Shown piece after piece: positions 13,998 through 31,223 of a stretch of DNA of 64,000 bases (position 1 is its first letter; the number at the start of each line of letters is the position of its first letter). This DNA is from Pristiophorus japonicus. Its lineage: Eukaryota. The notes under the pieces are model-generated. The model was given only the letters and a program-made list of their open reading frames with translations, made no database searches and was not told the origin of the DNA. The stretch lies in contig NC_091984.1 of the NCBI RefSeq assembly GCF_044704955.1, forward strand, positions 146,754,001 to 146,818,000, written 5' to 3'. Both the position numbers and the translations under genes were made by a program.

Positions 13998-14475
13998 AAT
14001 TCTCTCTTGCCTCCAATATATCCAATTCCTTCTTGTAGACCTGGGCCCACAGCACCAGACTGCCCCTAACCTGGGCACAACATTGGCATCTCATTCATTC
14101 ACTGGGACAGGAAATGCCTGGTGTGGGAAATGGGACCTAGGGCTCTGAACATTCCGTCTCCTCTCCTGAGGAAGGCTTCATGTTGGGGTCCAGTTCCAGG
14201 GGCCCCGACAGCACGTTCCGACCTCACCCACTTCCCCATTCCACGTGTGTAAGCCTGGACCCTCTCAGCAGGATATCCAACTGCAGGAGGCCGCACCACT
14301 GTGTCCAGCACTGTCCTCACCCGAAATCCACACACAGTCTGCATTGATCTGGTGCCTTTAACGTGCCAAAGGTCTCAAGACGCTTGCCAGCAAGATATAG
14401 CTGGCCACAGGGCGCCTCACCCTCAGCACAGACTCTCAGAGCGCACTGAGGTCAGTTGCAATGGGTCAGCGGGGT

Positions 14476-14731
14476 TCAATAGAAGCAATAGGAAAGAATA
14501 ATATTTCCTGGTCCCGATTGGAGGACCAATAGGAAGGAGTCATGTTTCCTGATCCCTATTGAGGGACCAATAAGAAGGAGCCAAATTTCCTGGGCCCTAT
14601 TGGAGGACCAATAGGAAGGAGCCATGTTTCCTGGTCCCAGTTGGAGGACCAATAGGATGGAGCCATGTTGCCTGGGCCCTATTGGAGGACCAATAGGAAG
14701 GATCCATGTTGCCTGGGCACTATTGGAGGAC
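14476..14731. repeat. 41-bp minisatellite, about 6 copies, 0.7-1 kb upstream of the V leader
   Basis: The attggaggaccaataggaaggagccatgtttcctgggccct unit starts at 14517, 14558, 14599, 14640, 14681 and 14722. Confidence 0.92.
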
Positions 14732-15296
14732 GAGTGGGACATGGAGTCCATGTTAGACGTGGAGTGCGGACCCTTCCTGTTGTAAATGTGGGATCATCGG
14801 CACCTGATCCCAGTAAAAATACCCTGACCTGGAGTGGGGCCATGGAAGGGGAAGGAGAGGGGAAGGGATTCGAAAATGTTCTGAGCGGACAGGATGGGGC
14901 AGTGGGTCAGAACCTGTCCTGTCGCTCCAGCTCACACTGATGGGGTGAGGATCTCCTCCCTCTGCTGGGCCTTCATGAAATGAGCTTTCTGTCCAAACCG
15001 GTCCCGACTGAGAATAGGCCCACAGCACAGAACGGCCCTTAATTGGGCAATTAACAACCAGTGCACTGAGAGAGGCCAAGGGATGGCCACTGTGGGGAAT
15101 GGGGCCTTACTCCAGGAGAAGGCATGCTCTGGGGTCAAGGGTTAACATCCATTGGTGGGGCAGGGCACAGGGAGGTTTACTCTGCATTTCAGTGTGCTGC
15201 ACCGGGGAGTCTGTGGGGAAGAGAGAGAGAGGGACAGACATAGTGACAGTGAGAGAGAGAGAGGGAGTTGGTGGGAGCGAGCGGTCGGGATAGAAG

Positions 15297-15396
15297 AAGA
15301 GGAAGTGAAATGTGCTGACGTGGCTTTCTCTGTGTGAAGACATTTACATACTGAGGGATGGGCAGTGAGACTCTCACAGGCTGCAGGTTTATAAAG
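15297..15396 (+). promoter_or_regulatory. Ig V promoter: ETS-IRF composite, TGACGTGG, variant octamer, TATA
   Basis: AAGAGGAAGTGAAA 15297-15310, TGACGTGG 15316-15323, ATTTACAT 15342-15349 (1 mismatch to ATTTGCAT), TATAAA 15390-15395, ATG at 15455 in CACCATG context. Confidence 0.75.
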
Positions 15397-15454: not shown

Positions 15455-15503
15455 ATGATTTCACCCATCCAGCTGATCTGGCCTCTGGCATTCTGTGTCG
15501 CAG
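15455..15503 (+). CDS. IGKV: Ig kappa-type light chain leader exon (MISPIQLIWPLAFCVA)
   Basis: Hydrophobic signal peptide; phase-1 donor CAG|gtacc; 187-nt intron ending ttccccctcag at 15690. Confidence 0.93.
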
Positions 15504-15690: not shown

Positions 15691-15989
15691 GTATCAGTGG
15701 GGACATCATCATGACCCAGTCTCCCCCGGTGCTGCCAGTGAGTGAGGGACAGACTGCAACCATCACCTGTACCGCCAGTGCATCCGTTAGCAAGTATGTT
15801 AATTGGTACCAGCAGAAAGCCGGGCAGAAACCCACTCTGCTGATCTATTACGCAACATCTCGTTTCACTGGAACCTCCGATCGCTTCACCGGCAGTTACC
15901 AGTCCAACACGTTCACCCTGAGCATCAGCAACGTGCAGAGCGAGGATGTTGCAGACTATCACTGTCAGCAATATAACTGCTACCCTCTA
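15691..15989 (+). CDS. IGKV: Ig kappa-type (type III/NS4-like) V segment, unrearranged, open frame
   Basis: [67 protein letters not shown], followed directly by an RSS. Confidence 0.97.
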
Positions 15990-16017
15990 CACTGTGATAC
16001 ACAGCCGTACAAAAACC
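15990..16017 (+). promoter_or_regulatory. V recombination signal sequence, 12-bp spacer
   Basis: CACTGTG-atacacagccgt-ACAAAAACC with a consensus nonamer. V-12/J-23 is the kappa-type configuration. Confidence 0.97.
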
Positions 16018-16116
16018 TCAATATACACAGCCCCACCTCCTGTACTGACTCACCCCACAGTTATATATAATATATAATAATTGACACACAGCCCCTTCTC
16101 CCGTACTGACTCAGCC

Positions 16117-19100
16117 TGTTATGTCTTCAACCAGCATTGTAACCCATGTATAATCTGACCTAATTTGTACACTGTGAAAACAATGACCAGGAGGTGGGAG
16201 ACACTCCTAACCTGGACCTTCAGGTATAAAAGGGGAAGCTCCACCCACCTTCATCACTTGAGTGCGAAGGAATAAAGGACAGGTCACAGACTGACCTTCT
16301 CTGAAGCATGGGCCTCGTGTGCATTTATACTGTATAGTAAGGACGTATCAATGGCGACGAGAAACTGGGATTTAAACCACGCGAGCATGGCCACTAGCAG
16401 AACAGATGAGAGGTACTGTGTTAAGGAATGGTTGGGACAGAGATTCAACATTGTTAAAGCAACACACAGTTCTCCAGGCAGACAACGGCAGTCAGGCATG
16501 CCCCAACATGTAGTCGAACCCAGAGGGGGAGTTCGACAGAGACAATGACAAGTTGAACGGCGATTCACGCCATTGCAAGGGGCAATGCGGCCAGTAATGG
16601 GGCCATCAACACCTGTTAGTGGCGCACTCAGGGACAGTCACAGGAGCAGTCAGGGACGATCAACTGGCAAGGGACCTTTTGTTTCCAACAGCAGCTCATG
16701 TTGGAGGCGTGGAGGCACACACTCAGCCGGAGTTTGCAGAGATGAGCAAAATACCTGCAGAAATTGCAGAAATGAACGCTGGGGGAAATCGCTGGAAGCT
16801 GAAGTTCAGCGAGTTCATGTGGAGCACGTATACAGTTCATACACCAGGACGCCACCGATAATGATGAACGTGCTCCTCAATGGCATCCCAGTATCAATGG
16901 AGTTAGACACGGGTGCCAGCCAGTCCCTGATGGGTATCAAACAGTTCGAAAAGTTGTGGGCGTCCAAGGCCAGGAGGCCAAAATTATCACCGATTGACGC
17001 ACAGCTACGGACTTACATAAAGCACATCATTCCGGTGCTAGGCAGCGCCACGGTTGTGTGACCCACAAAGATTCGGAGAACAGGTTGCCACTCTGGATTG
17101 TCCCAGGGGACGGTCCCGCACTACTGGGGAGGAGTTGGCTTGCTGTCATGTCCTGGAAATGGGGCGATGTCAATGCAATTTCCTCTGTGGAGCGAGTATC
17201 ATGCTCACAGATCCTGGACAAATTTGACTCATTATTTCAACCCGGCATCAGCACTTTCATGGGGGCCAAGGTAGTGATTCACATAAACCCGGATGCCAGG
17301 CCAGTAAACCACAAGGCTAGAGCGGTGCCGTAAGTGATGCGGGAAAAGATAGAAGGCAAATTGGACCGCCTGCTGAGGGAAGGCATCATCTCTCCAGTCG
17401 AATTCAGTGACTGGGCAAGCCCAATCATGCCAGTGCTCAAGGCGAATGGGTCGGTCAGGATATGTGGTGATTACAAGGCCACCATTAATCGGGTGTCACT
17501 CCAAGACCAGTACCTGCTACCGAGAGCGGAGGACCTCTTTGCGACGTTATCCGGTGGCAAACTTTTTTCAAAATTGGACCTGACCTCAGCTTACAGTCTG
17601 GAGCTGGCGAGTGAGTCAAAGAAGCTGACCACCATCACGACACACAAGGGGTTGTTTGAGTACAACAGATGTCCGTTCGGGATTCGCTCGGCCGCCGCGA
17701 TGTTCCAATGAAATATGGAAAGCCTCCTCAAGTCGATTCCAGGGACGGTGGTTTTTCAGGACGACATCCTCATCACGGGTTACGATACTGAAGAACAACT
17801 CCACAACCTGGAGGAGGTGCTACACAGACTGCACCGGGTAGGCTGTGACTGAAAAAGGCGAAGTGCATCTTCCTAGCTCCACAGGTAGAATTCCTTTGGA
17901 TGAGGGTAGCAGCAGACGGGATCAGCCCTACTGCATCCAAGACTGAAGCGATCCAGAGAGCACCCAGATCCCGTAACATGACGGAGCTGCGTTCGTTCCT
18001 GGGGCTCCTGAACTATTTTGGTAACATTCTTCCGAAATTGAGCATGCTGCTAGAGCCGCTACACGTGCTCCTACGCAAAGGTCGTGAATGGGTTTGGGGG
18101 GACAGCCAGGAAAGGGCTTTTAATAGAGCATGCAATTTGTTATGCTCCAACACTCTGTTAACACTATACGACCCATGTAAGAAACTTGGGTTATCGTGCA
18201 ATGCATCGTCCTATGTTGTCGGTTGTGTGTTGCAGCATGTCAATGTCAAGGGTCAGTTATAGCCAGGAGCTTATGCCTCGAGGAGTCTGTCCCAGGCAGA
18301 AAGGGGTTACGGGATGGGAGAAAAAGAGGCGCTCGCATGTGTATATGCGGTAAAGAAAATGCACCAATACCTGTTTGGCAGGAAATTTGAGCTGGAGACA
18401 GATCACAAACCCTGAACCTCCCTTTTGGCCGACAACAAGGCCATAAATGCAAACGCATCGGCCCGCATACAGAGGTGGGCACTCACGTTAGCCGCCTATG
18501 ACTATACAATTCGACACAGACCGGGTACTGAAAACTGCGCCGATACACTCAGCAGGCTCCCACAAGCCACCACTGAGGGGGCTACTGAGCATGCTGTTGA
18601 GATGGTCATAGCTGTTGAAGCTTTCGGAAGTGAAGGCTCACCCATGACAGCCCATCAGATTAAAGTCTGGACAAACAGAGACCCGCTATTGTCTCTAGTC
18701 AAGAAATGTGTCCTGAATGGGGACTGGGCAGCCACGTACAGGGCATGCCCTGAGAAATTTAAACCATTTCACAAGCGCAGGGATGAACTCTCGATTCAGA
18801 CTGATTGCCTACTGTGGGGAAACCGCAGTAGTCATGCCCCAGATGTGCAGAGAGGTGTTCATCAGAGAACTCCACAATGAGCACCCGGGCATTGTCATGA
18901 TGAAGGCAATTGCCAGGTCACACGTTTGGTGGCCAGGGATAGACGCAGATCTGGAACTTTGTGTTCGCAGGTGCAACACATGTGCCCAGCTGGGCAATGC
19001 GCCCAGTGAAGCCCCCCTTAGTCCTTGGTCATGGCCCGCCAAGCCTTGGTCACGCATCCATGTGGACTACGCAGGTCCTTTCATGGGGAAAATGTTTTTG

Positions 19101-20236
19101 GTTGTAGTAGACGCCTGCTCCAAATGGATCGAGTGTGACATTTTAAATTCAAGCACATCCTCTACCACGTTAGAAAGTCTACGGGCAATGTTCGCCGCCC
19201 ACGGGTCTACCGGACGTCTTGGTCAGCGACAATGGCGCGTGCTTCACAAGCACTGAATTCCAGGACTAAATGGCAGGCAATGGAATTAACCATGTTAAAA
19301 TGGCACCGTTCAAGCCTGCCTCAAACGGCCAGGCAGAACGAGCAGTGCAGATAATCAAACAGGGGACGCTTAGAATCCAAGGGGGCTCCCTACAAAGGCG
19401 CTTATCACGCCCCCTGTTGGCCTATAGATCCCGACCACACTCGCTCACAGGGGTTCCACCCGCAGAGCTGCTAATGAAAAGGATGCTCAAAACCCGACTA
19501 TCCTTTATACACCCGACCATGAAAGAAATTGTCCAGAGCAGGCGCTAGCCACAATATGAGTACCATGACAGGAATGCGAGGGCATGATGTATTGATGTAA
19601 ATGATCCTGTTTTTGTCCTCAACTACGCTGCAGGGCCCAAATGGCTCGCAGGCACTGTGATTGCCAAAGAGGGAAATAGGATTCTGGTAGTTAAACTTAC
19701 CAATGGACAAATCTGCCGCAAACACGTGGATCAAACAAAAAGGAGGCTCAGCAACCCCATCGCAGAAGCAGAGGAAGAACACGATGTAGAGTTCACTCCA
19801 CCACAGGTGACCGAACACCGGAACCAAAGGTTGGAGAGCCCAATCACTGTGGGCCGTCTGGATAGGCCTGAGGCACCGCAAAAAGCAAACACTCAGGCCA
19901 GCGCCCAACAACCGGAGCCCCAACTCAGGCGCTCTACAAGAGAGCATAAACCATCAGAGAGACTCAACCTGTGATCCCAATAAGACTTTGAGGGGGGAGG
20001 TGATGTCATGTATTCAACCAGCATTGTAACCCATGTATAATCTGACCTAAGTTGTACACTGTGAGAACAATGACCACGAGGGGGAGACACTCCTAACCTG
20101 GACCTTCAGGTATAAAAGGGGAAGCTCCACCCACCTTCATCACTTGAGTGCTAAGGAATAAAGGACAGGTCACAGACTGACCTTCGCTCAAGCATGGGCC
20201 TCATATGCATTTATACTGTATAGTAAGGACCTATCA
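16117..20236 (+). mobile_element. Ty3/Gypsy (Mag-like) LTR retrotransposon, gag-deleted and pol-disrupted, in the V-J interval
   Basis: LTRs 16117-16350 and 20004-20236 (TG..CA); PBS TGGCGACGAG (tRNA-Ser-like); PPT about 19990-20000; protease LDTGA, RT FQDD, integrase HH..CNTC and DYAGPF; near-TSD cagcc/caccc. Confidence 0.95.
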
Positions 20237-20529
20237 CACCCCACAGTTATATATAATATATAATAATGGACACACAGCCCCACGTCCTGTAAGGTTTTAC
20301 ACATGACTGACATTCGGCTCGATGGGAGTGATGGCAGGAATATTCAGCTGGAAGTTGCAGTGAATTGGGAAAGGATGGAGTGGGTCAGAGAGGAGTTGGG
20401 GCTGTGTCTTCATCACTGAGAATCTCACAGCTCTACTCTGTACATTCAGACAGCACGGAGACACTGGGTGGTCCCTGTGTCCTCAATCCAAATAATCTCA
20501 CAAACCCCCCACTATTGAGAGGGCCACAA

Positions 20530-21280
20530 CTTATAAAACCCAAAGCATAAACATGAAAGGAAAGTGAACAAGTGAAATCGTCATGTTCTTTCCCTGCCCA
20601 CCCCACACTCCAGGCCCTGTGGTGCCCACCCGTCGCAGAAGGCCTCAGGCCTAATCTGGGCTCCGTCCCCAGGGCCACCCGGGTGTGGTCTACACCGCCG
20701 AAGGGAGGCAGGCAGGCAGTGTGTCCACTCCATGGGCCCCGTCTAACTGGGACAACTGGGACCTGTGGATGGTCACCTTGGCCAGGCCCAGTAGCAGGCC
20801 CATGGGGAGGCCCTCTGACCTGCCCGCTCCCCCCACACGGGGTGACCAGGCCCAGGAGCAGGCCCACGGGGAGGCCCTCCGACTTGCCCGCTCCCCCCGC
20901 ACCGGGTGACCAGGCCCAGGAGCGTGGGACTGAAGTGGAGCCAAAAATCGAGCAGCAGCCCCTTCAAATAGTGGAAGAGGGGCTGCATCCTCTCACACTC
21001 CACGTACACACGGGTCACAGACTGAGGAAACAGGTTTCTAAAGCCCCTGAAACTCATTATTTTATAATGATCTACGAGGAAGGCCTGTGTCAGCAACACA
21101 AATATCTCGCTTGCAGACGGAGCCCGTTGTTCAAGGGGCACAAAGAGGTGAGCCCTGTGTGACGGGGACTTTCATTCTCCAGCAATTCCGTGGCCCCAGG
21201 GTTACCGCCTGATGGGGCGGGAAGGGCAGCTGGGAGATTTGTCCCCAACTCTCCTGGGTACTGCCACAGGCAACTCGGAA
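20530..21280 (-). mobile_element. Tx1/L1-clade non-LTR retrotransposon relic with an internal 64-bp tandem duplication
   Basis: The minus strand reads VYVECERMQPLFHYLKGLLLDFWLHFSPTLL and GLLLGLAKVTIHRS, like a Tx1 ORF2 C-terminus. The duplicated unit lies at about 20782-20922. Confidence 0.65.
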
Positions 21281-21281
21281 A

Positions 21282-21550
21282 CAGAGAGAGAGGGAGGGAG
21301 TGAGTGAGGGAGGGGGAGTGAGTGAAGGAGGGAGGAAGGGAGAGGGAGAGCGAGAGAGGGGGAGAGGGAGAGGGAGAAAAAGTGAGGGGGAAAGAGTGCG
21401 AGAGGCAGTCAGAGAGAAGCAAAATGAGAGAGTGAGAAAGAGAGATAAAGTGAGGGAGACAGTGAGACGCTGAGAAAGAAACCCACACACAGACACACAC
21501 ACACACACACACACAGACAGACAGAGAGCGGGGGAGAGAGACTGAGTGAG
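21282..21550. repeat. GA-rich tract plus (CA)n abutting the J RSS
   Basis: About 200 bp of mostly G/A, then a cacacac run at 21485-21515. Confidence 0.9.
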
Positions 21551-21561
21551 CCAGGGATGGA

Positions 21562-21600
21562 GGATATTGTACAGCCACTGCACTGGAAGCTGTCACTGTG
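21562..21600 (-). promoter_or_regulatory. J recombination signal sequence, 23-bp spacer
   Basis: GGATATTGT (21562-21570), 23 bp, CACTGTG (21594-21600). Heptamer is consensus; nonamer has 2 mismatches. Confidence 0.93.
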
Positions 21601-21635
21601 GCTCACATTCGGTAAAGGAACCAAGCTCAGACTGA
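21601..21635 (+). CDS. IGKJ: Ig light chain J segment (LTFGKGTKLRL)
   Basis: FGxG motif and phase-1 donor A|gtaagt at 21636; the only J seen before C. Confidence 0.97.
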
Positions 21636-21756
21636 GTAAGTAAACCCCAATGCTCTGTTATTAACACTTTAAATACTGAATCTTTCTCAGACACAAATGA
21701 TGAATATGAGAAGGTTTTAGTTTACATATGATTACACTCGAGCCTCCCGTCTTTTC

Positions 21757-22160
21757 TCATCTAAATCTATCAGCATAACCCTCTATTCCCTTCTCCCTCA
21801 TATCCCTGTCTAGCCTCCCCTTAAATACATCGATACTATTCACTTCAATCACTCCCTGTGGTAGCGAGTTCCACATTCTCACCACTCGCTGGGTAAAGAA
21901 TTTTCTCCTGAATTCCCGATTGGATTTCTTGCTGACTATCTTATATTGATAGTCTCTAGTTCTGCTCTTCCCCACAAGTGGAAACACACTCTCTGTATCC
22001 ACTCTATCAAAACCTTTCCTAATGTTAAAGACCTCTATCAGGTCACCCCTCAGCCTCAAAAGAAAAGAGCCCCAGCCTGTTCACCCTTTCCTGACATGTA
22101 CACCCGCACATTTCTGGTCCCATCCTTGTAAACCCTCTCTGCACCCTCTCCAGTGCCTCT
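21757..22160 (-). mobile_element. CR1 3' fragment in the J-C intron
   Basis: RLRGDLIEVF..FFTQRVVRMWNSLP (ORF 21757-22059). Confidence 0.85.
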
Positions 22161-22720
22161 GTATGGGTTATATAATATGGTGGGGAGCTGCGGTGAATGA
22201 AAGGGTTAATTGAAGAGTGCTGTGTATGACAGGGAGCCCGGCTGTATTCCTTTACCCACACTCCCCCTTCACCCAGCAAAGTATAAGTAACGAACTGTTA
22301 CCCACCGTGTGGAGGAGATCTGGACGTTGGCACACTGCGGTCCCATCCCTGCACCATCCCCGGAAATCACTCCCGAGCCTCCTGCCTGTCTCAGTGTGAC
22401 AGACACGGTGTGTGAGACACGGGCAGAGTGTGGGTGTGAGTGAGTGAGCTCGCTGGGGGCAGTCTGTGCTCCTGTCACAGTCTCTGATATAACTGAGCTC
22501 AGCCTCAGCACACTGACACTCCCGAGGTCCCGCCTCCCCCAGCTCCAACTCTGATCTGTCCAGTCCCCGCTCACCTCCTGTCCAACTTCTGATCGCAAAC
22601 AGGGGCAGCAGAGCTCGCAATCCGGCAGCTGCAGTGCTCCAGGGTTGTGGGGAGACTCTCAGTTGCTGTTTCTGTGGTTCGAGTTCAGGCCGATATTTAT
22701 CCCTCGACCTACATCGCTTA

Positions 22721-23045
22721 AACATAGAAACATAGAAAATAGGAGCAGTAGTAGGCCATTCGGCCCTTCGAGTCTGCACCGCCATTCAATATAATCATGG
22801 CTGATCCTCTATCTCAACACCATATTCCCATTTTTTCCCCATACCCCTTGATGCTTTTTGTTTCTAGAAATCTATCTATCTGCCTCTTAAATATATTCAG
22901 TGACTTGGCCTCCACAGCCTTCTGTGGCAGAGAATTCCACAGGTTCACCACCCTCTGAGTGAAAACATTTCTCCTCATCTCATTTGTAAATTTCCTATCG
23001 CGTATCCTGAGACTGTGACTCCTTGTTCTAGACTTCCCAGCCCCG
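22721..23045 (-). mobile_element. CR1 3' end with tail in the J-C intron
   Basis: aacatagaaacatagaaaatagg tail and the CR1 3' UTR. Confidence 0.85.
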
Positions 23046-23392
23046 GACTGTCGGAGGTGCCGTCTTTCAGATCAGACGTTAAACCAAGGCCCTGTTTGCC
23101 CTCTCAGGTGGATATAAAAGATCCCATGCCACTATTTTGAAGATGAGCAGGGGAGTTCTCCCCGGTGTCCTGGTCAATATTTCTCCCTCAACCAACGTGA
23201 CAAAAGAACAGATTATCATGTCGTTATCACATCGCTGTTTGTGGGAGCTTGCTGTGCACAGATTGGCTGCCGTGTTTCACACATTACAACAGTGACGACA
23301 CTCCAAAAGTCCTTCATTGGCTGTAAAGCGCTTTGAGATGTCCGGTGGTTGTGAAAGGCGTAATATAAATGCAAGACTATCTTTTTTTTTTC
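23046..23392 (+). mobile_element. Deu-domain SINE (SacSINE1/AmnSINE-like), 5'-truncated
   Basis: gtgccgtctttc..agacgttaaacc..aaagatcccatg..gtaaagcgctttg..tataaatgcaag core, recognised from memory of DeuSINE consensus sequences. Confidence 0.7.
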
Positions 23393-23620
23393 ATCACCTT
23401 TACATCAAATGCATTTATATTTAGATGCAACTTATCAAGCTAGGCAAAGAAGATTAAGAATTAGTGTTGCTCGCCTCTAATGGTTAATCACCAGCCAGGA
23501 GTTCATTCACCCAGCTCTCCGTTATCAGATGAAAACACACGGAAACACCACAGTGACACACACACACACACACACACATACTAATATACACCTATTAAAC
23601 ATCCTTCTCCTCCCTTTCAG

Positions 23621-23949
23621 GCCGAGGGAAGACCCCACCCACGCTGACCCTGCTGCCCCCCTCCCCGGAGGAGGTCACGACCAAGGGCACTGCCACCCTG
23701 GTGTGCCTCGCCGATCACTTCTACCCCGATGCGGTGGAGGTGGAGTGGAAGAAGGACGGGGCGACCATTTCGGCCGGGGTCCAGACCAGCGACTACCTGC
23801 GAGCTTCGGACAACACCTACAGTGTCAGCAGCCTGCTGACCCTCTCTGGCTCCGACTGGGAGTCCAACGCCAGCTTCTCCTGCAGCCTCACCCACGAGAG
23901 CCTCTCCTCTCCCCTCAGCAAGGGAGTCAGGAGAGCAGAATGTGCGTAG
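23621..23949 (+). CDS. IGKC: Ig kappa-type light chain C exon
   Basis: Acceptor tccctttcag; phase matches J. PTLTLLPPS..ATLVCLADHFYP..WKKDG..YSVSSLLTL..FSCSLTH..ECA*, with the penultimate interchain Cys. Confidence 0.97.
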
Positions 23950-24111
23950 CGTGTCAGCGACAGTCCGCGGGGGAGACGCAACTTTAAATAGAACAGGGGG
24001 TGAGCCGGGAGGGCAAAGGTCATTGTCAGCACTGCATTTCTACTCTCTTCCTTCTCGGGACTGGGTCAGGGAAAGCATCTGAGGGTCAGGGAGTAAGGCA
24101 CGTTATTGGGG

Positions 24112-24385
24112 CAGTATCGAGGGAGCTTTACTCTGTATCTAACCCGTGCTGTACCTAACCTGGGAGTGTTTGATGGGACAGTGTAGAGGGAGCTTTACTC
24201 TGTATCTAAGCCGTGCTGTACCTGACCTGAGAGTGTTTGATGGGACAGTGTAGAGGGAGCTTTACTCTGTATCTAATCCGTGCTGTACCTGACCTGAGAG
24301 TGTTTGATGGGACAGTGTAGAGGGAGCTTTACTCTGTATCTAACCCGTGCTGTACCTGCCCTGGGAGGGTTTGATGGGACAGTGT
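24112..24385. repeat. 67-bp tandem repeat x4 in the predicted IgL 3' UTR
   Basis: gggagctttactctgtatctaa starts at 24121, 24188, 24255 and 24322. Confidence 0.95.
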
Positions 24386-24580
24386 TGACTCGTGCTGCCA
24401 AGTCAAACCTCTCGAAGATGCTGAAGACTGTCAGTAGAGTAAAACTAATGTTAAACTGCGAAGTGCCGCTTCAGTAAGCAGACCCCCTCCCTGCTCACCC
24501 TGCTGTTACAAATCAAGGTTTTGTCCCCGTTTGAAGGGACAGGATTCTCACGGTGTGGAGAAAATCCCCACAACTATTTT

Positions 24581-24681
24581 AATAAAGCTGCATTCTCCCT
24601 GTGAATGTCTCCAACTCGCTCTCGCTGGGCTGTTTATTCAAGTCTTGTTTCTATAAATGTGAATCTGTAAAAGGCAATAAA
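24581..24681 (+). terminator. Two candidate polyadenylation signals for the IgL transcript
   Basis: AATAAA at 24581-24586 and 24676-24681, each followed by GT/T-rich sequence; first AATAAA noticed after the stop. Confidence 0.65.
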
Positions 24682-25267
24682 CGTGAAGAATATTCAGTCT
24701 GTGTCTGGCGACTGCTTTGGAAATGTCCCACCTCCCCCTCAGCTGCATTTCAGTAAGTGTCTGTCCTGATTGGCTGGGTGAGCTGTCAATCAATGGCACA
24801 TCAGCAGGAGATTTGATTCAAAGCCAATTATCAATCATTTTGAAACGATCAATTTGACCTCGAACCCCTGGAGTGCACAAGATTAAACACAGAGACTCTA
24901 AAAGCTGCTGGGATTAAACCCTCCCAGTCTGAGGGTTGGCTCTCACTCTGCACACTGGGGGTGTTGGGGCAGCTCCTGATGGTGGGATCGCACTGTGCAC
25001 TGTGTGCTGACTGCTGGGGGCAATCTGGGGGCAGGAGGCCACAGTCACAACGTTGCATTCTCTCTCCTTAACGTGTGGCTCGTGGCAGCAGCACAAAACT
25101 GCACCGAGTGAGGCCTCAGCTTCGGGAGAGGAGCAGTCAGTGTATCACCCTGTACTTGTCCCTGAGTGTTAGTGTGTCTTACCCAGCACCGCCTGTCGGG
25201 GTGTAGTGTGTGTGTGTTTATGTGTGTGAGTGACTGTGACCCAGCACTCTCTGTTGGTGTGTGTTCA

Positions 25268-26166: not shown

Positions 26167-26412
26167 TGTCATGTATTCAACTGTCATTGTAACCCATGAA
26201 TAAACTGACCTAAGTTGTACACCATGAGAACATTGATCACTAGGTGGTGAATTGTGGGAGACACTCCTAACCTGGACTTTCAGGTATAAAAGTGGAAGCT
26301 CCACCTACCTTCATCACTTCAGTGCTGGCTAATAAAAGTTACTGGTCACAGACTGACTTTCTCTCAAGTATGGGCCTCATGTGCATTTATACTGTACAGT
26401 AAGGACATATTA
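26167..26412 (+). mobile_element. Solitary LTR related to the V-J Gypsy LTRs
   Basis: tgtcatgtattcaa..cactcctaacctggac..ggtataaaag..tgcatttatactgta..gtaaggac; no TSD. Confidence 0.9.
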
Positions 26413-29414: not shown

Positions 29415-31223
29415 TGTTGTGTATAGAGGAGCTCCACGAGGCTGAGTACTGTGAGCTAAACTTATTTTAACCTTAGTCTTCTTTATTACAACTCCAGAGT
29501 GCCTAAGCAACATGGCAGTCGCCCCCTCTGGTGACAAGTATTACATAGTTACATACATAACATCACTCCACCCCCCCAAGTCTTCAGTACATATTATTTC
29601 CAAGTTGAGGCAATCCGGAGCCCTTCGCTCCCTGGTTGATCGTCTAAGTTCAAACCCTGGTGTGTGTGAGTTGGCCGGACCATTGCCACACTGCACCACG
29701 GCTGGTCTGACCGGACTGTCAGGAACAGTGGATTCATCCTCGTGATTGACAGCGAGTTCTATTGCTGGTGGGGTGTGTGTTGGTGGATCGTCGATGGTGA
29801 TGTCCTCATCAAGTCGTTCCTGGTTGTCAGTAAATCACAATTTGGTCTGATCTAAATGCTTTCTGCACGTTTGGCCATTTACCAGTTTGATTATAAACAC
29901 CCTATTCACTTCCTTGGCCAAAACAGTGCCAGCAACCCACTTGGGACCGTGACGGTAATTCAGGACAAACACAGGGTCGTTAACATCAATGTCACGTGAA
30001 ACAGTGGCACGATCGTGGTACATGTTCTGCCTGTGTCGCTGGGTTTCCACTTGAACATTAAGATTCGGGTGGACAAGGGAGAGCCTGGTTTTGAGGGCTC
30101 TCTTCATTAACAATTCTACCAGAGGAACCCCGGTGAGCGAGTGGGGTCGTGTCCGGTAACTGTGCAGAATGCGAGACAAGCGGTTCTGCAGGGAACCATC
30201 CGTCACGCATTTCATGCTCCGCTTGATTGTTTGGACTGCCCGCTCCGCTTGACCGTTAGACGTGGGCTTAAACGGAGCAGACCTGACATGCTTGATGCCA
30301 TTCCGGCTCATAAACTCGTTGAATTCCGAGCTGGTGAAACACAGTCCATTGCCGCTGACAAAGATGTCGGGCAAGCCATGGGTGGCGAACTTGGCCTGGA
30401 GGCTTTCAATGGTGGCTGTGGGCGTGCTGGATGAAGTGATTACGCATTCAATCCATTTGGAGTAAGCATCCACAACTACTAAAATTATCTTTCCTAGAAA
30501 GGGGCCAGCAAAATTTACTTGGATCCTGGACCACGGTTTGGAGGGCCATGACCACAGACTCAGTGGAGCCTCCCTTGGTGCACTGCCCAGTTGCGAGCAA
30601 GTGTTGCATTGGTGCACGCATGACTCCAAGTCCAATCAATGCTGGACCACCAAACATGCGAGCTGGCAATTGCTTTCATCATGACAATGCCTGGGTGGGT
30701 ACTGTGTAGGTCACGTATAAACGTTTTCCTGCCTTTTTATGACAAAACCACATGTGCACAACTCTGCATATTACTTCTCCGTTGGTTTTGTCAGTGCGAG
30801 CACATTCTTCATGAGGCCGTATATTTCAGGCCCACAGACGGCGAGGAGAACCGCCCAGCACTTGGCTGCGTTAGTGTCACCTTCCAGCTCGTTTGCCACG
30901 AAGTACGGTCGAGACTTACGACGAAGGCATCCCAATCATCACCCTCTACGAATCTCTCTAATATTCCAACAGCAGCCATGGTTGCGTGAAGATTCGTATT
31001 CTGTTACTCTTCGCCAACTGTTGTGTATAGAAGAACTCCACAAGGCTGAGTACTGTGAGCTAAATTTAGTGTGACCATAGTCTTCTTTATTACAACTCCA
31101 GAGTGCCTGAACAATATGGCAGCCAACCTTTTATACTGGCCCTGCATGTGTGTGCAGGTGACCATGAGGACTCCAACACTCGCGCCCTCTAGTGGCAAGT
31201 ATGACAGAGTTATACACATAACA
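29415..31223 (-). mobile_element. Internally deleted Gypsy element (LTR, 5' stub, integrase, LTR)
   Basis: LTRs 29415-29562 and 31019-31223; PBS TGGCGAAGAG; integrase ORF 29835-30635; near-TSD caaag/caaat. Confidence 0.9.

What the first reader, a model, noticed from the sequence alone, without database searches (positions are those of the whole stretch)
15990..21600. A whole LTR retrotransposon sits inside the RAG deletion interval
Seen: the Gypsy element inserted 100 bp 3' of the V nonamer, into a short AT-rich tandem duplication, stretching the V-J gap from about 1.5 kb to 5.6 kb. Its LTRs differ by about 11 substitutions and 1 indel in 234 bp by manual comparison, so it has persisted. V and J are co-oriented, so joining would excise a 5611-bp signal-joint circle carrying the entire element. 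Inference: the V-J spacer is a somatic safe haven for transposons, and the circle is a cluster-specific KREC-like marker.
Basis: partly seen in the sequence, partly recalled or inferred. Interest (0 to 1): 0.7.

Follow-up and report, generated by a model that had tools for sequence, protein, structure and literature searches.

The report
Dead retrotransposon in shark antibody spacer
A full-length but broken retrotransposon sits between the V and J pieces of one shark antibody light-chain gene and would be cut out if the gene is joined, but it is the only foreign insert among 55 such spacers, so it is likely a rare tolerated passenger and not a sign of a safe haven.

Summary
The anatomy is confirmed: a 4,120-bp Ty3/Gypsy element (LTRs differing by 11 substitutions and 1 indel; 5-bp target duplication, 4/5 match) lies between intact V 12-RSS and J 23-RSS of a shark Ig kappa cluster. 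Deletional joining would excise 5,611 bp. The element is coding-dead (8 stops, 4 frame changes).

The safe-haven idea fails. 54 of 55 split V-J spacers (1.27-1.96 kb) hold no foreign DNA, while distal J-C introns are about 82% repeat-matched. One spacer insertion is what intron insertion rates predict (1.1-2.6). A V-less sister copy that cannot rearrange kept part of the same insertion.

Whether this cluster still rearranges is open. All cis-signals are intact, but its V has two framework changes seen in none of 68 other Vs. C-exon conservation proved uninformative, because V-less relics show it too.

Its value is as a natural test of whether shark within-cluster joining tolerates a nearly four-fold longer spacer. 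The scan had noted sister kappa clusters and relics before, but not this insertion.

The parts
15342..15395 (+). Octamer-like ATTTACAT (15342-15349) and TATAAA (15390-15395) of the V promoter
   Evidence: Read from sequence; same letters in most clusters; function inferred
15455..15503 (+). Leader exon with GT donor; 187-bp leader intron follows
   Evidence: the same splice is seen in a contig from another kappa V in run X6
15691..15989 (+). Kappa-type V exon, open frame; S12P, Y87H and a Cys at 93 are unique among 69 Vs
   Evidence: (V-set)
15990..16017 (+). V 12-RSS
   Evidence: identical heptamer and nonamer in most clusters
16025..16116 (+). 61-bp AT-rich tandem repeat, left part; 16112-16116 is the left target-site copy
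16117..16350 (+). 5' LTR (TG...CA)
16351..20003 (+). Internal region: primer-binding-site-like motif next to the 5' LTR, broken single gag-pol-type frame (protease, RT, RNase H, integrase order), polypurine tract about 19990-20000
20004..20236 (+). 3' LTR
   Evidence: junction shared with the sister copy at G000:C8:145.88 Mb
20237..21561 (+). Right target-site copy (20237-20241), rest of the 61-bp repeat and the ordinary V-J spacer (64-bp repeat, GA and CA microsatellites)
21562..21600 (-). J 23-RSS
21601..21635 (+). J segment (LTFGKGTKLRL), with one cluster-specific silent letter at 21607
21636..23620 (+). J-C intron, 1,984 bp, shortest of 43 on C8; lacks 7-14 kb present in related clusters
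23621..23949 (+). C exon, open frame to stop
   Evidence: (C1-set)

Best explanation
A now coding-dead Ty3/Gypsy retrotransposon lies in the V-J spacer of one shark kappa light-chain cluster, where it is likely a tolerated passenger that RAG would remove on a 5,611-bp circle only in those B cells that join this V to this J. Shown: the element, its breaks, the intact RSSs, its absence from all other spacers, and a later duplication that left a V-less sister with the same 3' junction. Inferred: it inserted once into the 61-bp repeat about 2.4% sequence divergence ago, shortly before that duplication. It was tolerated because it hits no exon, splice site or RSS and would be absent from the joined gene, and because the locus has dozens of sister clusters. 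Somatic excision does not change what the germline passes on, so the element gains nothing. Untested: that joining across 5.6 kb still occurs.
For: Spacers: 54 of 55 carry no foreign run (42 of 43 on C8 alone). Repeat-matched bases: 0 of 61,032 in spacers, 319,377 of 391,083 in distal J-C introns. At least 8 LINE-tailed insertion events, about 12 with other kinds, segregate in J-C introns (hand-deduplicated), which predicts 1.1-2.6 per spacer-sized target; 1 is seen. The sister copy at C8:145.88 Mb shares window 19224-24976 at 92.9%, has no V in 24 kb upstream and a 14-bp deletion in C. Dates agree: LTR K/2 is 2.4% (95% range 1.2-4.2%); the window branch since the duplication is 37 of 1,662 sites (2.2%) plus 9 shared sites. 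Family copies elsewhere have LTR K 0.013-0.139. Promoter motifs, splice sites, V, RSSs, J and C are intact. TEs inside RAG deletion intervals are ordinary in mammals: the human VH locus is 41.8% repeats with 213 LTR elements (PMC2212390, passages).
Against: No signal joint or coding joint from this cluster was observed. The V has two framework replacements at positions invariant in 68 other Vs, and a Cys in CDR3. Two or more such replacements occur in 15 of 26 clusters with a visible lesion and in 5 of 26 without (lesion labels assigned by hand). Private changes in V (3 replacement, 1 silent in 285 bp) fit neutral drift. The ancestral spacer has no detectable repeat DNA, which hints at selection against spacer insertions. 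Nurse shark joining is described as local, over about 400-500 bp (PMC2435157, PMC2193156, passages).
Confidence: 0.6

Rival explanations
1. The insertion silenced the cluster, through distance or heterochromatin on the element, and the gene is an early pseudogene that still looks intact.
For: S12P and Y87H at otherwise invariant framework sites plus a CDR3 Cys; about 3-fold likelihood ratio for the lesioned class; neutral-looking V; the only other descendant of the insertion is dead; all other spacers are 1,963 bp or shorter.
Against: No stop, frameshift, splice or RSS lesion after 2.2% neutral divergence on its branch. C has 0 replacement changes against about 5 expected, but this is weak: 2 of 9 V-less relic C exons also have 0, and relics as a group are as conserved (32 of 2,901 exon sites, 16 replacement to 16 silent) as linked ones.
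Confidence: 0.3
2. The V-J spacer is a safe haven: TEs accumulate there because RAG removes them before the gene is expressed.
For: One full-length element has persisted with both RSSs intact, whereas three apparent insertions in or near V or the leader go with broken genes (L066, L096-L098, L054/L061).
Against: 1 of 55 spacers; 0% repeat-matched spacer DNA against 82% in distal introns; no excess over intron rates; equal persistence in a copy that cannot rearrange. Germline V-J joining, seen in 4 of 69 loci, would delete a spacer TE from the lineage.
Confidence: 0.05
3. The co-oriented 3' LTR, 1.3 kb upstream of the J RSS, drives germline transcription over J and helps keep the stretched cluster accessible.
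For: The LTR is on the same strand and keeps a TATA-like and a polyadenylation-like motif. Inference only.
Against: No transcript data; the two LTRs and the sister LTR drift at about the neutral rate.
Confidence: 0.05

Closest known systems
Nurse shark Ig kappa (NS4, type III) split V-J-C clusters (PMC2193156, PMC5192425; passages)
   Same: One V, one J, one C per cluster; about 60 genes, mostly split, a few germline-joined (here 55 split and 4 joined of 69 V loci); leader intron 186 bp there, 187 bp here.
   Different: V-J intervening DNA is about 500 bp in nurse shark, 1.3-2.0 kb in this genome and 5.6 kb in this cluster.
Ty3/Gypsy LTR retrotransposons (Mag-like clade by recall, not tested)
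   Same: TG...CA LTRs, 5-bp target duplication, single frame with protease-RT-RNase H-integrase order, no room for env.
   Different: This copy is coding-dead; only its position is unusual.
TEs inside mammalian V(D)J deletion intervals and excised signal circles (PMC2212390 passages; PMC6620893 and PMC13158842 search listing only)
   Same: TE DNA between RSSs leaves the chromosome on the excised circle.
   Different: In mammals this is the rule over large intervals; in these shark kappa clusters it is a 1-in-55 exception.
KREC (recalled)
   Same: A signal-joint circle usable as a PCR marker of B-cell rearrangement.
   Different: KRECs arise from intron-RSS to Kde deletion; this would be a V-J circle from a single cluster, and it has not been observed.

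Membership tests
Ty3/Gypsy LTR retrotransposon | Two direct LTRs with TG...CA ends | tested here: met
   234 and 233 bp, 95% identical
Ty3/Gypsy LTR retrotransposon | Short target-site duplication | tested here: met
   5 bp, 4 of 5 match; perfect 5-bp in 8 of 14 family copies with two LTRs, 4 of 5 in five, unclear in one
Ty3/Gypsy LTR retrotransposon | Domain order protease-RT-RNase H-integrase | tested here: met
   RT, RNase H, integrase zinc finger in order in the window; family copy; protease hit weak, E 0.007
Ty3/Gypsy LTR retrotransposon | No env gene | tested here: met
   The single family frame maps across window 16351-19971 of the 16351-20003 internal region
Ty3/Gypsy LTR retrotransposon | Gag domain; RT phylogeny against BEL/Pao and Gypsy clades | not tested
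   No Pfam gag hit; no RT tree built; the Gypsy call rests on order, Pfam models and recalled motifs
Autonomous (active) element | Intact reading frame | tested here: not met
   8 stops and 4 frame changes; longest frame 179 aa
Chondrichthyan Ig kappa cluster | L-V-J-C cluster with V 12-RSS and J 23-RSS, co-oriented | tested here: met
   that kappa uses 12/23 is recalled
Chondrichthyan Ig kappa cluster | About 60 copies, mostly split, a few germline-joined | tested here: met
   against PMC5192425
Chondrichthyan Ig kappa cluster | Sequence groups with NS4/type III in a tree of isotypes | not tested
   No reference isotype sequences obtained (one search returned 2 uninformative hits); PDB hits include kappa V domains
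Functional rearranging cluster | Coding or signal joints from this cluster | tested here: inconclusive
   2 of 2 V-J-C contigs in run X6 come from other clusters; no power for this one
TE safe haven | TE enrichment relative to matched non-coding DNA | tested here: not met

The most novel reading that the evidence does not exclude
Shark kappa V-J spacers are held short and TE-free because RAG joining inside a cluster depends on V-J proximity; this 5.6-kb outlier is a natural knock-in that crippled its cluster, and six J-less Vs parked 44-79 kb from the next J extend the same distance series, making the distance limit of cluster-type recombination directly measurable in one animal.
Probability: 0.2. 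Interest if true: 0.6.

Novelty: new member of a known kind. Interest (0 to 1): 0.3.

Why it matters
As a TE finding it is ordinary. As an immunology tool it has some value. Sharks are reported to join segments only within a cluster, without long-range contraction (PMC2435157, passages), and my searches showed no paper that measures how far apart V and J can be. This cluster has a spacer 3.8 times the median and carries diagnostic letters in V, J and C, so its use can be counted against about 40 near-identical neighbours. The survey also shows the reverse of the proposed haven: the L-V-J core is repeat-poor while J-C introns are repeat-rich.

Tried and rejected
C-exon conservation as proof of function: it looked strong (0 replacement changes against 5.4 expected, P 0.005; sister copy 4 plus a frameshift) but was rejected after the control, because V-less relic C exons are as conserved, probably through gene conversion or recent duplication (inferred). 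The leader line was read in the wrong frame and the C lines and the first C count likewise; I use only the corrected C result.

Significant depletion of recent insertions in spacers: not shown (P of 1 or fewer is 0.28-0.70).

Expression: no RNA holder listed. Contigs laid on V and J show two spliced V-J-C contigs from other clusters in one run of unrecorded library type; this says nothing about this cluster. No listed contig spanned the insertion junction.

Dating in years: the epaulette shark rate of 7e-10 per generation (PMC10587355, passages) gives about 3e7 generations, which looks too old, so no calendar age is offered.

Isotype by database names: one search gave 2 hits under bacterial names, not usable. 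A consensus RSS pattern found 0 matches because the heptamer is CACTGTG. A C-start pattern was specific to this cluster and was replaced.

Contig C1278 holds a 99.9-100% identical copy including the element up to the contig end; I cannot tell a second haplotype from a redundant contig, so fixation is unknown.

Literature searches for this kind of insertion listed no matching paper; the library lacks most subscription journals, and no supplements were read.
Full report
Setting. The window is G000:C8:146754001-146818000 of a 5.9-Gb genome. It holds one complete light-chain cluster: promoter motifs, leader 15455-15503, V 15691-15989, J 21601-21635, C 23621-23949. The 12/23 RSS layout, the copy number with a few germline-joined members and the 187-bp leader intron match chondrichthyan kappa (NS4/type III) as described in PMC2193156 and PMC5192425 (passages). 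I did not build an isotype tree.

Observation. There is also a 5-bp target duplication with one mismatch. The element has RT, RNase H and integrase in Gypsy order (protease weakly in a family copy). The family is large: 4,451 candidates, 40 scored, all 96% identical or better over 750 bp. I fetched 17 of the 39 other scored copies; 14 had two LTRs, 13 of them 4,063-4,188 bp long, LTR K 0.013-0.139. These were chosen for closeness to the window copy, so their ages are biased towards it. The window copy is full-length but broken (8 stops, 4 frame changes).

The locus survey. A V search (150 of 729 candidates scored) gave 69 close V loci and 6 distant ones that I left out. Of the 69, 55 are split V-J, 4 are germline-joined and 10 have no J within 9 kb. 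An exact J pattern gave 58 sites, all but two next to a listed V, so few clusters with a typical J were missed. 43 of the split loci are on C8 and 12 on small contigs that may be second haplotypes. 54 of 55 spacers are 1,270-1,963 bp (median 1,493) and contain no run of 40 bp or more that three reference spacers fail to match; only this one does. Their length differences trace to tandem repeats where I looked. J-C introns vary from 1,984 to 16,429 bp (43 on C8).

Test of the haven. Against a 361-kb library of DNA from elsewhere, 0 of 61,032 spacer bases in 41 other C8 clusters matched, against 13% of the first 1.1 kb of intron and 82% of the distal intron. The library is small, the 82% may be inflated by duplicated intron DNA, and the spacers share one ancestor, so they are not independent. 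A fairer test counts events. Using 26 of 43 introns as queries, I read at least 8 separate LINE-tailed insertions with filled and empty sites, about 12 with other kinds, deduplicated by hand from 46 rows. Scaled to 1.49 kb this predicts 1.1-2.6 spacer events; 1 is seen. So there is no enrichment and no significant recent depletion. The logic also fails: excision happens in some B cells only and leaves the germline allele unchanged, and germline joining would delete the element outright.

A sister copy. The closest relative of the spacer lies at C8:145.88 Mb. It matches window 19224-24976 at 92.9%, including the 3' LTR junction, the short intron and C, but has no V or 5' element in 24 kb upstream, and its C has a 14-bp deletion. 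The insertion therefore predates a duplication and survived in a copy that cannot rearrange. The window branch carries 37 of 1,662 non-coding changes (2.2%) with 9 shared, in line with LTR K/2 of 2.4%.

Is the cluster alive? For: no stop, frameshift, splice or RSS lesion. The C exon has no replacement change, but 9 V-less relic C exons are about as conserved as 49 linked ones (1.1% against 1.0% from the majority), so this carries little weight. Against: S12P and Y87H at sites invariant in 68 other Vs and a CDR3 Cys; two or more such framework changes occur in 15 of 26 lesioned and 5 of 26 unlesioned C8 Vs (hand labels, one V left unclassified). That Tyr87 packs at the heavy-light interface is recalled. 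Sequencing runs gave no power. I put continued joining at roughly 60-65%.

How it most likely works. Shown: a dead element between intact, co-oriented RSSs, unique in the locus. Inferred: it was tolerated because it damages no coding or signal sequence and dozens of sister clusters buffer any loss. If RAG pairs the two RSSs, the element leaves on a 5,611-bp circle and the joined gene is normal in layout. That is tolerance of one insertion, not a haven.

Comparison and novelty. TEs inside RAG deletion intervals are routine in mammals (PMC2212390, passages). In sharks, segments are about 400-500 bp apart and long-range joining is reported as rare or absent (PMC2435157, PMC2193156, passages). Five searches listed no paper on a full LTR element inside a shark V-J spacer, within a library that lacks most subscription journals. 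Papers listed and not named above were seen as search listings only. Earlier notes of this scan describe ordinary kappa clusters and V-less relics in this genome and a LINE in a TCR RSS in another genome, none this insertion.

Verdict. Real and accurately described; interpretation half right. New member of a known kind, interest 0.3, useful mainly as a built-in test of distance tolerance in cluster-type V(D)J recombination.

Noticed in passing
L046, L050, L052, L053, L060, L066, L073, L079, L081, L082 (G000:C8 143.36-159.52 Mb; C1231:597630): Ten Vs have no J within 9 kb; six keep a perfect 12-RSS. Nine break from the normal spacer at the same point in the 61-bp repeat. Six of the nine on C8 lie 44-79 kb upstream of a same-strand J. 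L046, the next V after this window, looks intact in leader, frame and RSS.
   Followed up: partly
L159 (G000:C8:145880313-145886000): V-less sister cluster sharing the 3' part of the same insertion, the short J-C intron and a frameshifted C.
   Followed up: yes
window 21636-23620: The J-C intron lacks 7-14 kb present in related clusters; the joint has a 9-bp overlap and starts inside a LINE fragment. Any regulatory loss is untested.
   Followed up: partly
L162-L169: C exons with no V or J match in the DNA fetched upstream are as close to the majority as linked ones (1.1%) while their upstream flank differs by 5.2%, suggesting exon-limited gene conversion.
   Followed up: partly
L064, L088, L089, L090: Four germline-joined V-J loci, all reading out of frame into a stop.
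   Followed up: no
L066; L096-L098; L054 and L061: A LINE-like insertion in the V 3' end, repeat DNA replacing the V acceptor and upstream region, and a displaced or lost leader: damage near V looks at least as common as insertion in the spacer.
   Followed up: partly
window 26167-26412: A solo LTR related to the element's LTR (read by eye; the matching place in the sister copy is 84% identical).
   Followed up: no
window about 29420-31200 and 34340 onward, minus strand: Further Gypsy-like elements with integrase-like sequence, read by eye.
   Followed up: no
L170 and L073 (G000:C8 159.52-159.56 Mb): A displaced kappa cluster 11 Mb from the main array: promoter-side DNA joined to spacer DNA with V missing, J present, and a V on the opposite strand 36 kb away.
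   Followed up: no
G000:C1278: A 34.8-kb contig 99.9-100% identical to the window over the 17.8 kb compared, ending inside the element.
   Followed up: partly
window 14440-14767: 41-bp tandem array upstream of the promoter, also present at the displaced cluster.
   Followed up: no
P0001, P0002: Two shark-like light-chain C domains (81-85% identical) are filed under bacterial names on short contigs, probably contamination.
   Followed up: no
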